From assembly GCF_003334305.1 (NCBI RefSeq), contig NZ_QOWS01000004.1: 64,000 bases of DNA; one strand, given 5' to 3'. This document shows positions 32,101-35,100 of this stretch, in pieces (position 1 is the first letter of the stretch; each line of letters begins with the position of its first letter). The position numbers were made by a program. The stretch comes from Escherichia coli. Lineage in GTDB: Bacteria; Pseudomonadota; Gammaproteobacteria; Enterobacterales; Enterobacteriaceae.

Positions 32101-35100
32101 ATCGAACCCTCGTATAGAGCTTGGGAAGCTCTCGTTCTACCATTGAACTACGCCCGCTTCGAGATGCGTAAGGCATTATAAACCTTACGCTCTCCTTAGC
32201 AAGTGCCGCGCTGCTGACTGCTGATTAATTCGCCATCAGCATTTTGGCTTGCTGCCCTGCGGCGGCAAGTAACGTAGCGGATCAATTGCCGTTGCACGGT
32301 AACGAATCTGGAAATGCAGGCGAACAGATGCCGCATCCGTGCTCCCCATAGTGGCGATTTTTTGCCCAGCCTTCACGCTTTGCCCATTATTTACCAGCAT
32401 CGTGTCATTATGGGCGTAAGCCGTAATGTAATCTTCACTGTGTTTAATCATGATGAGATTACCGTAGCCACGCAGCTGGTTGCCCACATACACCACCTTT
32501 CCTGCACCCGCGGCGTAAATAGGTGTACCCCGTGGAGCTGAGATATCAATCCCTTTATTGCCGCCATCTGCTGTCGAATACGGCATGATAACTTTCCCTG
32601 TCGTTGGCCATAACCAACAACGTTGCCCTACTGGCGGCCAGGAAGATTTCGGTACCGCTGATGACGGTGTAACCGATGCGGTTTTGGTCGTTGATTTGGC
32701 GGTTGATTTACGTGTACTACTGCTACTTTTCGCCCCACCCAGTTTTAGTTTCTGACCAACTTCAATGGTGTAAGGGGGGGAAATGCCGTTCAGTCGCGCC
32801 AGTTCTTTTACGCTGGTTCCCGTGGTGCGCGAAATACGATATAGCGTATCCCCCCGTTTCACGGTGTAAACGGAGCCGGAATACGTTCCTGTATCGGATG
32901 ATTTGCTACCCGAACAGCCCGCCAAAAGCAGTCCAACCGATAACAACATCACGATACCCAGAGATTTTTTATTCAGGCGTCCCGCACTCAAAATCTTTCC
33001 TCGCTTAAAAAACAAGACGCCTTATCATAGCAGCCAGCCTCTTGATACCCAATCTCTTGCTTCTGGAAAAACGTGGTAATAGAGAAAGAGGTTAATTTCA
33101 TTTGGCAAAGGGAAGTATCATCAGCAAAATATTCGCTGTAGAGGTATCGAACTTCCTGACTTTTTACCCTATTTCCCATCCTGATGCGTAATAATCCCAA
33201 TTTATCACATTGATTTTATCGCCACTCATATTGATACGTATCACTGCCCCTATTCAGAGTCCTGTTTCGTATCATATCTGTGTTTTTTTAACGTCATCAC
33301 ACTTCCTACCTCCCCTAACGCTTATCGTCGTTTCTGGCGTAAATCTTGCCTGCTTAGACTAAATCTTTGCCATAAGAACCAAATGTTCAAATCGAGGGGA
33401 TTTCTATGGAAGCGCGGGAAGCAACCGCTACGGGTGAATCATGCATGCGCGTCGATGCCATTGCTAAGGTCACCGGGCGGGCACGATATACTGACGATTA
33501 TGTTATGGCGGGCATGTGTTATGCGAAATATGTACGTAGCCCTATCGCACATGGTTATGCCGTAAGTATTAATGATGAACAAGCCAGAAGTTTGCCGGGC
33601 GTACTGGCGATTTTTACCTGGGAAGATGTGCCTGATATTCCATTTGCTACTGCTGGGCATGCCTGGACACTTGACGAAAACAAGCGCGATACCGCCGATC
33701 GCGCACTGCTAACTCGCCATGTTCGTCATCATGGTGACGCCGTTGCCATCGTCGTGGCCCGCGATGAACTCACGGCAGAAAAAGCGGCGCAATTGGTCAG
33801 CATTGAGTGGCAAGAATTACCCGTTATCACCACGCCAGAAGCGGCGCTGGCAGAAGACGCTGCACCAATCCATAACGGTGGCAATTTACTGAAACAAAGC
33901 ACGATGTCGACGGGTAATGTCCAACAAACAATCGATGCCGCCGACTACCAGGTACAGGGGCACTATCAGACCCCCGTTATTCAACATTGTCACATGGAAA
34001 GCGTAACATCGCTGGCGTGGATGGAGGATGACTCGCGAATTACCATCGTTTCCAGCACCCAGATCCCGCACATTGTTCGCCGCGTGGTTGGTCAGGCGCT
34101 GGATATTCCCTGGTCATGCGTACGAGTCATCAAACCGTTTGTCGGTGGCGGTTTTGGTAATAAACAGGATGTACTGGAAGAGCCAATGGCGGCATTCCTG
34201 ACCAGCAAGCTTGGCGGCATTCCGGTGAAAGTTTCCCTTAGCCGTGAAGAGTGTTTCCTCGCAACCCGTACCCGCCACGCTTTTACCATTGACGGGCAAA
34301 TGGGCGTGAACCGCGACGGAACATTGAAAGGTTATAGTCTGGATGTTCTGTCTAACACCGGCGCTTATGCATCTCACGGGCACTCCATCGCTTCTGCGGG
34401 GGGGAATAAAGTCGCTTACCTTTATCCTCGTTGTGCCTACGCTTACAGTTCAAAGACCTGCTATACCAACCTCCCCTCGGCTGGTGCGATGCGTGGTTAT
34501 GGCGCGCCACAAGTCGTATTTGCCGTTGAGTCTATGCTTGATGACGCCGCGACAGCGTTAGGTATTGATCCTGTTGAAATTCGTTTACGCAACGCCGCCC
34601 GCGAAGGAGATGCTAATCCGCTCACGGGCAAACGTATTTACAGCGCAGGGTTGCCGGAGTGTCTTGAAAAAGGCCGGAAAATCTTTGAATGGGAAAAACG
34701 CCGTGCAGAATGCCAGAACCAGCAAGGCAATTTGCGCCGCGGCGTTGGCGTCGCCTGTTTTAGCTACACCTCTAACACCTGGCCTGTCGGCGTAGAAATA
34801 GCAGGCGCGCGCCTTCTGATGAATCAGGATGGAACCATCAACGTGCAAAGCGGCGCGACGGAAATCGGTCAGGGTGCCGACACCGTCTTCTCGCAAATGG
34901 TGGCAGAAACCGTGGGGGTTCCGGTCAGCGACGTTCGCGTTATTTCAACTCAAGATACCGACGTTACGCCGTTCGATCCCGGCGCATTTGCCTCACGCCA
35001 GAGCTATGTTGCCGCGCCTGCGCTGCGCAGTGCGGCACTATTATTAAAAGAGAAAATCATCGCTCACGCCGCAGTCATGCTACATCAGTCAGCGATGAAT

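What the first reader, a model, noticed from the sequence alone, without database searches (positions are those of the whole stretch)
33335..33350. Candidate sigma-54 promoter in front of xdhABC, next to the sigma-54 activator ygeV
TGGCGT-N5-TTGCC has correct GG-N10-GC spacing and lies about 95 bp upstream of xdhA. ygeV, a sigma-54 activator with no defined regulon, is encoded just downstream of the operon, so YgeV may be the dedicated activator of purine hydroxylation.
Basis: inference. Interest (0 to 1): 0.5.

Follow-up and report, generated by a model that had tools for sequence, protein, structure and literature searches.

The report
Known sigma-54 promoter of xdhABC
The motif is the already published sigma-54 promoter of the E. 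coli xanthine dehydrogenase operon, and YgeV (also called UacR) has already been proposed as its activator, so the finding is correct but not new.

Summary
The element CTGGCGTAAATCTTGCC is at 33334-33350 (+) with correct GG-N10-GC spacing. The window is E. coli, and its actS-xdhA spacer is identical to K-12.

On sequence alone the site is unremarkable. It scores 12.2 bits on a PWM built from ChIP-seq sites, and shuffles give about as many such hits per 64 kb as the window holds. It is nevertheless real:
- It is the best hit, at the same position, upstream of xdhA in all 28 orthologous loci from 11 genera. TGGCGT and TTGC are invariant while the flanks drift.
- The same 17-mer is published: Zhao et al. 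2010 (rpoN-dependent expression) and Bonocora et al. 2015 (sigma-54 ChIP-seq peak OS29, flagged as experimentally confirmed in EcoCyc).

The YgeV idea is also published. The PRECISE-1K "YgeV iModulon" contains xdhABC, and ygeV has been named uacR (urate regulator). I found no direct test at xdhA.

My own additions are inference only. A conserved TATCA-N3-TGA motif lies upstream of all four intergenic sigma-54 promoters of the purine island, with a pair at about -152/-131 of xdhA. It is the likely YgeV enhancer. A helically phased CRP-like site lies between enhancer and promoter.

Verdict: observation confirmed, interpretation supported, already known.

The parts
33334..33350 (+). Sigma-54 -24/-12 element of xdhAp, CTGGCGTAAATCTTGCC (GG 33336-37, GC 33348-49)
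   Evidence: Sequence. PWM score 12.2 bits. Conserved in 28 of 28 orthologous loci, with 10 of 17 columns invariant. Published ChIP-seq peak OS29 and rpoN-dependent expression.
33361..33361 (+). Predicted transcription start, 19 nt after the motif centre (K-12 NC_000913.3 position 3,000,261)
   Evidence: Inference using the convention of Bonocora et al., who give 84 nt to the K-12 xdhA start. Not mapped experimentally here.
33203..33215 (+). Candidate enhancer (UAS) site 1, TATCACATTGATT; core TCA-N3-TGA centred at about -152
   Evidence: Conserved in all orthologous xdhA upstream regions. PWM trained on non-Escherichia sites scores it 18.2 bits.
33224..33236 (-). Candidate enhancer (UAS) site 2, ACTCATATTGATA (TATCAATATGAGT on the minus strand), 21 bp from site 1, centred at about -131
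   Evidence: 17.3 bits. The 12-mer CTCATATTGATA also occurs upstream of ygeW and ygfT.
33283..33304 (+). Conserved T-tract plus TCACA block. CRP-like TTTTA-N6-TCACA at 33286-33301, centred 48.5 bp upstream of the -24/-12 centre
   Evidence: TCAC at 33297-33300 and A at 33290 are invariant in 29 sequences. Two mismatches to the CRP core. The role is inferred.
33406..37068 (+). xdhABC operon: xdhA 33406-35703 (K-12 annotation starts at 33445), xdhB 35714-36592, xdhC 36589-37068
   Evidence: ORFs and RefSeq annotation.
37108..38886 (-). ygeV (uacR / isrR), a sigma-54 enhancer-binding protein of 592 aa
   Evidence: Pfam: PAS 162-206, Sigma54_activat 273-439, HTH_8 548-587. GAFTGA at residue 347 and Walker B LFLDE at 369.
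39255..39271 (+). Sigma-54 element of the ygeW promoter, CTGGCACACTTATTGTT
   Evidence: PWM 15.8 bits, the best hit in the window. Published ChIP-seq peak OS30. Conserved.
39040..39056 (+). TATCA-N3-TGA site upstream of ygeW (TATATCAATATGAGAAT). Further copies have cores at 39073-39081 and 38946-38954
   Evidence: conserved across genera; 17.1 bits.
48710..48722 (+). Perfect palindrome TATCATAATGATA, 183 bp upstream of the ygfK sigma-54 element
   Evidence: 20.0 bits, the top hit in the window. The same module is conserved in Kluyvera.
48891..48907 (+). Sigma-54 element of the ygfK promoter, GTGGTGCGATTGTTGCT
   Evidence: 12.7 bits. Published ChIP-seq peak OS31.
63898..63914 (-). Sigma-54 element of the ygfT (uacF) promoter, TATGCCCGTTTATTGCA. 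Its TATCAATATGA site lies just beyond the window end (K-12 locus L002 35161-35171)
   Evidence: Published ChIP-seq peak OS32.

Best explanation
The element at 33334-33350 is the sigma-54 promoter of xdhABC (xdhAp).

Proposed mechanism:
1. RNA polymerase with sigma-54 sits on the -24/-12 element as a closed complex. This step is shown by published ChIP-seq.
2. It starts transcription near 33361 only when an AAA+ enhancer-binding protein hydrolyses ATP. This follows from the established mechanism of the sigma-54 class.
3. The activator is most likely YgeV (UacR), encoded next to the operon. I infer that it binds the conserved pair of TATCA-N3-TGA sites centred at about -152 and -131.
4. DNA looping is possibly helped by a bend at the conserved T-tract/TCACA (CRP-like) block around -67. 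This is also inferred.

xdhABC would then be one of four or five sigma-54 operons of the purine/urate catabolic island that share this architecture (xdhABC, ygeWXY-hyuA-yqeA, ygfK-ssnA-ygfM-xdhD, ygfTS, perhaps yqeB). They would be switched on together in response to urate or purines under low oxygen and in the absence of glucose.
For: Promoter:
- Exact motif and spacing.
- The window's spacer is identical to K-12.
- Published sigma-54 ChIP-seq peak on this 17-mer, flagged as confirmed in EcoCyc.
- xdhA is up 4.9-fold on sigma-54 induction and down 2.1-fold in an rpoN deletion.
- The element is the top PWM hit at a fixed position in 28 of 28 orthologous loci from 11 genera. TGGCGT and TTGC are invariant while the N5 spacer and flanks vary.
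- No sigma-70-like promoter above chance and no Rfam element in the spacer.

Activator:
- YgeV has a complete enhancer-binding-protein architecture, including GAFTGA.
- xdhABC is in the published YgeV iModulon, and ygfT is reported to be down in a ygeV mutant.
- ygeV is cited as uacR.

Enhancer:
- TATCA-N3-TGA occurs 10 times in the 38-kb K-12 island against 0.96 expected. Seven of the 8 distinct sites lie in the four spacers that carry sigma-54 promoters, 131 to 332 bp upstream of the predicted starts.
- A PWM trained only on non-Escherichia xdhA-upstream sites ranks the ygfK, xdhA (two sites) and ygeW sites as the top four in the 64-kb window.
- The sites are conserved at xdhA and ygeW across genera.
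- In Kluyvera the ygfK-type module is kept in a different gene context.
Against: - On sequence alone the -24/-12 match is at chance level for a 64-kb window and weaker than the median real site. It reads TGGCGT rather than TGGCAC, and TTGCC rather than TTGCW.
- The gSELEX tables of Shimada 2021 that contain my search terms list RpoN peaks at the ygeV/ygeW spacer and at xdhB/xdhC. The term xdhA does not occur anywhere in that paper's text.
- Bonocora's RNA-seq saw only five intergenic sigma-54 promoters respond to sigma-54 overexpression, all at genes with known activators, and xdhA is not among them.
- I found no published or computed direct evidence that YgeV binds the TATCA-N3-TGA sites or activates xdhA. 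The iModulon link is a correlation.
- ygeV is not within 6.5 kb of xdhC in the Kluyvera, Hafnia and Enterobacillus loci, although the promoter and the sites are kept there.
- Iwadate & Kato 2019 could not be read.
Confidence: 0.7

Rival explanations
1. The sigma-54 site is real, but the activator at xdhA is a different enhancer-binding protein (for example NtrC, FhlA or PrpR), or the site is a poised, rarely productive binding site. In this reading YgeV controls only ygeW and ygfT.
For: No direct YgeV test at xdhA was found. ygeV is not adjacent to xdhABC in Kluyvera, Hafnia and Enterobacillus. In Pluralibacter a different enhancer-binding-protein gene lies directly upstream of xdhA. Urate degradation is reported to depend on formate, which would fit FhlA.
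Against: There is no NtrC-like TGCACC-N3-TGGTGCA site in the spacer; hits in the window are at chance level. The FhlA-controlled hyc-hyp spacer has TCGAC-type repeats and no TATCA-N3-TGA. The xdhA sites share their motif with the ygfT promoter, whose expression is reported to depend on YgeV. xdhABC co-varies with the other island operons.
Confidence: 0.15
2. The conserved TATCA-N3-TGA sites are operators of some other regulator of the island, such as a repressor or a metal- or purine-responsive factor. YgeV would bind elsewhere or need no specific site.
For: The motif-to-protein assignment is pure inference. The ygfK copy (TTATCATAATGATAA) has some resemblance to AT-rich palindromes such as Fur boxes; this comes from my own recollection and was not scored. 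One copy lies inside ygeX and one lies downstream of the yqeB promoter, which is atypical for an enhancer.
Against: Position and number fit enhancer sites: 110 to 310 bp upstream of every intergenic sigma-54 element of the island, and paired 21 bp apart at xdhA. The 5-N3-5 inverted repeat suits a dimeric Fis-type helix-turn-helix protein such as YgeV. I recognised no known E. coli transcription-factor consensus in it (my own knowledge).
Confidence: 0.2
3. The match is a chance occurrence of a loose consensus with no function.
For: The PWM score and the simple pattern count are at the level expected by chance in 64 kb.
Against: Invariant conservation across 11 genera inside an otherwise diverging spacer. 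Published ChIP-seq occupancy and rpoN dependence.
Confidence: 0.02

Closest known systems
xdhAp, the sigma-54 promoter of E. coli K-12 xdhABC (EcoCyc; Zhao, Liu & Burgess 2010; Bonocora et al. 2015, peak OS29)
   Same: It is the same object. The 17-mer CTGGCGTAAATCTTGCC is identical, and so is the whole spacer.
   Different: Nothing differs.
YgeV iModulon / UacR regulon (Lamoureux et al. 2023; Iwadate & Kato 2019 as cited)
   Same: The same proposal: YgeV activates xdhABC together with ygeWXY, ygfK-ssnA-ygfM-xdhD, ygfT and uacT.
   Different: The published link rests on co-expression plus one mutant effect on ygfT. No operator sequence is given in what I could read.
prpBCDE promoter (PrpR, sigma-54, IHF, CRP). 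Recalled from my own knowledge, not checked here
   Same: A sigma-54 catabolic promoter activated by a divergently or adjacently encoded enhancer-binding protein that binds short palindromes upstream, with cAMP-CRP input giving catabolite repression.
   Different: The operator sequence and the sensor domain differ. No canonical IHF site was seen at xdhA, on visual inspection only. CRP involvement at xdhA is inferred from a weak half-site.
FhlA-dependent hyc/hyp and NtrC-dependent glnAp2 promoters
   Same: The same promoter class: -24/-12 element, upstream enhancer sites, ATP-dependent activation.
   Different: The enhancer sequences differ. The hyc-hyp spacer has TCGAC-type repeats. The NtrC consensus is absent at xdhA.

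Membership tests
Sigma-54-dependent (-24/-12) promoter | GG and GC dinucleotides exactly 10 nt apart within a TGGCAC-N5-TTGCW-like element | tested here: met
   TGGCGT-N5-TTGCC at 33335-33350. PWM score 12.2 bits, which is within the range of real sites but below their median of 15.4.
Sigma-54-dependent (-24/-12) promoter | Match stronger than chance, or under selection | tested here: met
   Not above chance on score alone. Conserved in 28 of 28 orthologous loci, with 10 of 17 invariant columns against 0 of 87 in the adjacent spacer segments 33302-33333 and 33351-33405.
Sigma-54-dependent (-24/-12) promoter | Occupied by sigma-54 holoenzyme in vivo | not testable with these tools
   Published: ChIP-seq peak OS29, fold above threshold 11. 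The sequence is identical in the window.
Sigma-54-dependent (-24/-12) promoter | Expression of the downstream gene depends on rpoN | not testable with these tools
   Published microarray: up 4.9-fold on sigma-54 induction, down 2.1-fold in an rpoN deletion. Not seen in Bonocora's RNA-seq under non-inducing conditions.
Sigma-54-dependent (-24/-12) promoter | Transcription start about 12 nt downstream of the GC | not tested
   No 5'-end data were available to me. The predicted start is 33361.
Sigma-54-dependent (-24/-12) promoter | Upstream enhancer sites for a cognate enhancer-binding protein | tested here: inconclusive
   A conserved pair of TATCA-N3-TGA sites lies at -152/-131, shared with the other sigma-54 promoters of the island. 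The protein that binds them was not identified.
Bacterial enhancer-binding protein (YgeV) | AAA+ sigma-54 interaction domain with GAFTGA loop and Walker motifs, plus a C-terminal DNA-binding helix-turn-helix | tested here: met
   Sigma54_activat E = 8e-70 and HTH_8 E = 3e-13. GAFTGA at residue 347, LFLDE at 369, GESGTGKE visible in the printed sequence.
YgeV/UacR regulon | YgeV-dependent expression of xdhABC | not testable with these tools
   Only indirect evidence: iModulon co-membership, and ygfT down in a ygeV mutant.

The most novel reading that the evidence does not exclude
[quoted passage not shown] A short operator, TATCA-N3-TGA(G/T), the predicted UacR/YgeV enhancer, lies 110 to 310 bp upstream of the four intergenic promoters. 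A CRP-like site is centred 48.5, 49.5, 58.5, 59.5 or 78.5 bp upstream of the centre of the -24/-12 element, so always on the same helical face. cAMP-CRP would then act as the bending co-factor in place of IHF, which would explain glucose repression of urate degradation. Neither the operator nor the phasing appears in the papers I could search.
Probability: 0.45. Interest if true: 0.4.

Novelty: already known. Interest (0 to 1): 0.15.

Why it matters
As submitted, the finding adds nothing. The promoter has been in the literature since 2010 and in EcoCyc, and the YgeV hypothesis has been in print since 2023.

The question is still worth a bench test. The island encodes the anaerobic urate-degradation pathway of gut bacteria, which is now of medical interest for gout and hyperuricaemia. 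Its regulation is explicitly described as poorly understood. A defined operator for UacR/YgeV, and a CRP requirement, would give concrete targets for engineering urate-degrading probiotics. They would also complete the assignment of one of the last E. coli enhancer-binding proteins without a mapped binding site.

Tried and rejected
1. The perfect palindrome TGATACGTATCA (33232-33243) and its partner TGTTTCGTATCA first looked like the enhancer. Cross-species alignment showed that only the overlapping TCATATTGATA part is conserved, so I dropped it.
2. NtrC consensus: no site in the spacer, and window hits are at chance level.
3. FhlA: the hyc-hyp control region has different repeats and no TATCA-N3-TGA.
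4. IHF: I saw no WATCAA-N4-TTR match between enhancer and promoter. This was visual inspection only, not scored.
5. Sigma-70 promoter or terminator scan of the spacer: one weak hit, at chance level.
6. Rfam: only tRNA-Gly (glyU) at 32087-32157, and nothing in the xdhA leader.
7. Papers not held: Iwadate & Kato 2019 and Reitzer & Schneider 2001. From memory, the latter may already predict this promoter and YgeV; this is unverified.
8. A search for 'UacR' was swamped by the clinical abbreviation UACR.
9. The supplements of the Reg-Seq preprint that are held hold nothing on xdhA, and no supplements are held for PRECISE-1K. The BoltzNet ChIP-seq compendium does not mention YgeV.

Full report
**What is in the sequence.** The window is E. 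coli chromosome. The 801 bases around the finding match 5,412 of 5,426 complete E. coli genomes and lie between actS (ygeR) and xdhA. The actS-xdhA spacer is base-for-base identical to K-12 MG1655. TGGCGT-AAATC-TTGCC is at 33335-33350 on the + strand, with GG at 33336-37 and GC at 33348-49, so the spacing is the canonical GG-N10-GC. xdhA, xdhB and xdhC follow at 33406/33445-35703, 35714-36592 and 36589-37068. ygeV is convergent at 37108-38886 (-), and ygeW is divergent from ygeV at 39362. The stated '95 bp upstream' is right for the K-12 annotation (ATG 33445).

**Is it more than chance?** Not on sequence alone.
- TGGC-N7-TTGC occurs 6 times in the window against 3.7 expected.
- I built a 17-position PWM from 38 intergenic sigma-54 ChIP-seq sites of Bonocora et al., leaving out the four sites of this island.
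- The xdhA element scores 12.2 bits, rank 6 in the window. First-order Markov shuffles give 6.7 +/- 2.7 hits of that score per 64 kb.
- Real sites have a leave-one-out median of 15.4 bits, and 13% score lower than this one.
- Its deviations from consensus are TGGCGT for TGGCAC and TTGCC for TTGCW.

**Conservation settles it.** One scan of species-representative genomes with XdhA returned 28 usable orthologous loci. They come from Escherichia, Citrobacter, Kluyvera, Atlantibacter, Buttiauxella, Hafnia, Enterobacillus, Yokenella, Klebsiella indica, Trabulsiella and Pluralibacter, with XdhA identity of 70-99%.
- In every locus the best PWM hit in the 450 nt upstream is the same element, yTGGCGT-N5-TTGCy, at -94 to -125 from the K-12 start. 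The runner-up hits are far weaker.
- In the alignment of 29 distinct sequences, 10 of the 17 columns are invariant (TGGCGT and TTGC). The N5 spacer varies.
- By contrast, 0 of 55 leader columns and 0 of 32 columns just upstream are invariant.
- In the more distant genera the last base is T, the consensus, and scores rise to 14.5-16.3 bits.

**It is already known.**
- Zhao, Liu & Burgess 2010 list 'tttcTGGCGTAAATCTTGCCTGctta' at -110 to -93 of xdhA. xdhA is up 4.9-fold five minutes after sigma-54 induction and down 2.1-fold in an rpoN deletion.
- Bonocora et al. 2015 report ChIP-seq peak OS29 with the motif CTGGCGTAAATCTTGCC and fold above threshold 11. The predicted start is 84 nt before xdhA, and the peak is flagged 'C', meaning experimentally confirmed in EcoCyc.
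- The same table lists sigma-54 sites at ygeW, ygfK and ygfT. Table 2 lists a functional promoter inside yqeC that drives yqeB.
- The term xdhA does not occur in the text of the gSELEX study of Shimada et al. 2021. The tables I saw list the ygeV/ygeW spacer and an xdhB/xdhC peak.

**The YgeV idea is also published.**
- Lamoureux et al. 2023 describe a 13-gene 'YgeV iModulon' that contains xdhABC and ygeWXY.
- They cite the sigma-54 promoters upstream of both operons and the lower ygfT expression in a ygeV mutant (Iwadate & Kato 2019). They propose YgeV as the activator (gene list).
- ygeV is cited as uacR, 'urate regulator', controlling ygeWXY-hyuA-yqeA. It is cited as needed for anaerobic urate consumption. 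Another group renamed it isrR.
- I could not read Iwadate & Kato 2019, and I found no direct test of YgeV at xdhA.
- YgeV itself is a complete enhancer-binding protein: PAS, Sigma54_activat, AAA lid and HTH_8 domains, GAFTGA at residue 347 and Walker B at 369.

**What the comparison adds (inference).** Upstream of xdhA there are three more conserved blocks.
- Two of them are TCA-N3-TGA cores with an outward TATCA. They are TATCACATTGATT at 33203-33215 and ACTCATATTGATA at 33224-36, 21 bp apart, centred about -152 and -131 from the predicted start.
- 28 of the 29 distinct upstream sequences have such a pair, 19-22 bp apart. Hafnia has a single exact core.
- The same motif marks the other sigma-54 promoters of the island. 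In the 38-kb K-12 island TATCA-N3-TGA occurs 10 times against 0.96 +/- 1.0 expected, and 0 of 100 shuffles reach 10.
- Seven of the 8 distinct sites lie in the four spacers that carry sigma-54 promoters.
- Their positions relative to the predicted starts are xdhA -152 and -131, ygeW -332, -234 and -205, ygfK -202 and ygfT -199.
- A PWM trained only on non-Escherichia xdhA-upstream sites ranks the top four distinct sites in the whole window as ygfK (20.0 bits), the two xdhA sites (18.2 and 17.3) and ygeW (17.1). Shuffles have a mean best score of 14.8 and a 95th percentile of 18.4.
- The ygeW copies are conserved across genera.
- In Kluyvera the ygfK-type sigma-54 element has moved to just after xdhC and still has TATCATAATGAGA 175 nt upstream.
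- ygfT is the gene reported to depend on YgeV, so this motif is the best candidate for the YgeV/UacR operator.

**A possible CRP input (weaker inference).** The third conserved block at xdhA is a T-tract plus invariant TCAC(A) at 33283-33304. It reads as a CRP core with a poor left half, TTTTA-N6-TCACA.
- Window-wide, cores with up to 2 mismatches are at chance level (29 found, 29.6 expected).
- Even so, one lies upstream of each of the five sigma-54 elements of the island.
- The centres lie 48.5 (xdhA), 49.5 (ygfT), 58.5 (ygeW), 59.5 (yqeB) and 78.5 bp (ygfK, the only perfect TGTGA-N6-TCACA in the window) from the centre of the -24/-12 element. They are therefore roughly in helical phase.
- The ygeW site is conserved. 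A native CRP site in that spacer, and glucose repression of urate degradation, are mentioned by a 2025 preprint.

**Alternatives.** NtrC and FhlA are unlikely activators. The motif could belong to another regulator, since nothing here ties it physically to YgeV. ygeV is not within 6.5 kb of xdhC in Kluyvera, Hafnia and Enterobacillus. A chance match is excluded by the conservation and by the published ChIP-seq data.

**Verdict.** Novelty is 'already known' and interest is low. The shared operator and the phased CRP-like sites are the only possibly new points, and they need bench tests.

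Noticed in passing
window 33394-33447: The K-12 annotation starts xdhA at ATG 33445 (752 aa). 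The first in-frame ATG at 33406 (765 aa, MEAREATATGESCMR...) has a GAGGGGA Shine-Dalgarno sequence at 33394-33400, and both are conserved in most of the genera. The 13 extra codons change synonymously. The K-12 ATG is CTG or TTG in Trabulsiella and Buttiauxella. PGAP already uses the upstream start in strain E2865. The K-12 start is probably 13 codons too short, so the leader is about 45 nt.
   Followed up: partly
window 39149-39164: AGCCAAACGTTTTCGT in the ygeV-ygeW spacer differs from the PurR operator consensus ANGCAAACGTTTNCNT at one position. It is conserved in most genera, though not in Buttiauxella. A PurR repressor input to the ygeW promoter is possible. A weaker match (2 mismatches) lies at 48666-48681, upstream of ygfK.
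   Followed up: partly
window 33286-33301, 39197-39212, 47620-47635, 48813-48828, 63948-63963: CRP-like cores (0 to 2 mismatches) are centred 48.5 to 78.5 bp upstream of each of the five sigma-54 elements of the island, spaced by about 10-bp multiples. The only perfect TGTGA-N6-TCACA in the window is the one at ygfK.
   Followed up: partly
window 48882-48907: The ygfK promoter has two overlapping -24/-12 registers 9 nt apart. CTGGCAAGAGTGGTGCG (12.1 bits) is the one printed by Zhao 2010. GTGGTGCGATTGTTGCT (12.7 bits) is the one printed by Bonocora 2015. The Kluyvera orthologues keep the second.
   Followed up: partly
window 47560-47576 (-) and 47322-47330: The published yqeC-internal sigma-54 promoter for yqeB has no TATCA-N3-TGA site upstream. 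The nearest copy (TCACATTGA, 11 bits) lies about 240 nt downstream of it, inside the transcribed region.
   Followed up: no
window 40886-40898: A palindromic TATCATCTTGATA lies inside ygeX (dpaL). It is the only TATCA-N3-TGA copy of the island that is not in a promoter spacer.
   Followed up: no
L010, L011, L021 (Kluyvera); L017 (Hafnia); L018 (Enterobacillus); L030 (Pluralibacter): The gene order differs. In Kluyvera, ygfM/xdhD-like genes follow xdhC directly, and no ygeV lies within 6.5 kb. The same holds for Hafnia and Enterobacillus. In the Pluralibacter contig L030, a different enhancer-binding-protein gene (37% identical to the YgeV AAA+ domain) ends just upstream of xdhA.
   Followed up: partly
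window 36412-36428 (-) and 36911-36927 (+): Intragenic sigma-54-like hits of 11.7 and 11.3 bits lie in xdhB and xdhC. Shimada 2021 lists a gSELEX peak at the xdhB/xdhC junction.
   Followed up: no
window about 27400-32160; L001 10541-19258: Upstream of actS the window carries tRNA-Gly (glyU, 32087-32157), a 550-aa ORF at the position of the glycoside hydrolase family 15 gene annotated in L001, and remnants of a type III secretion cluster. Strain E2865 has an extra integrase/IS66 island next to the tRNA that the window lacks, and its xdhA is annotated as frameshifted. K-12 has an IS2 insertion and about 180 nt more between yqeA and yqeB than the window.
   Followed up: no
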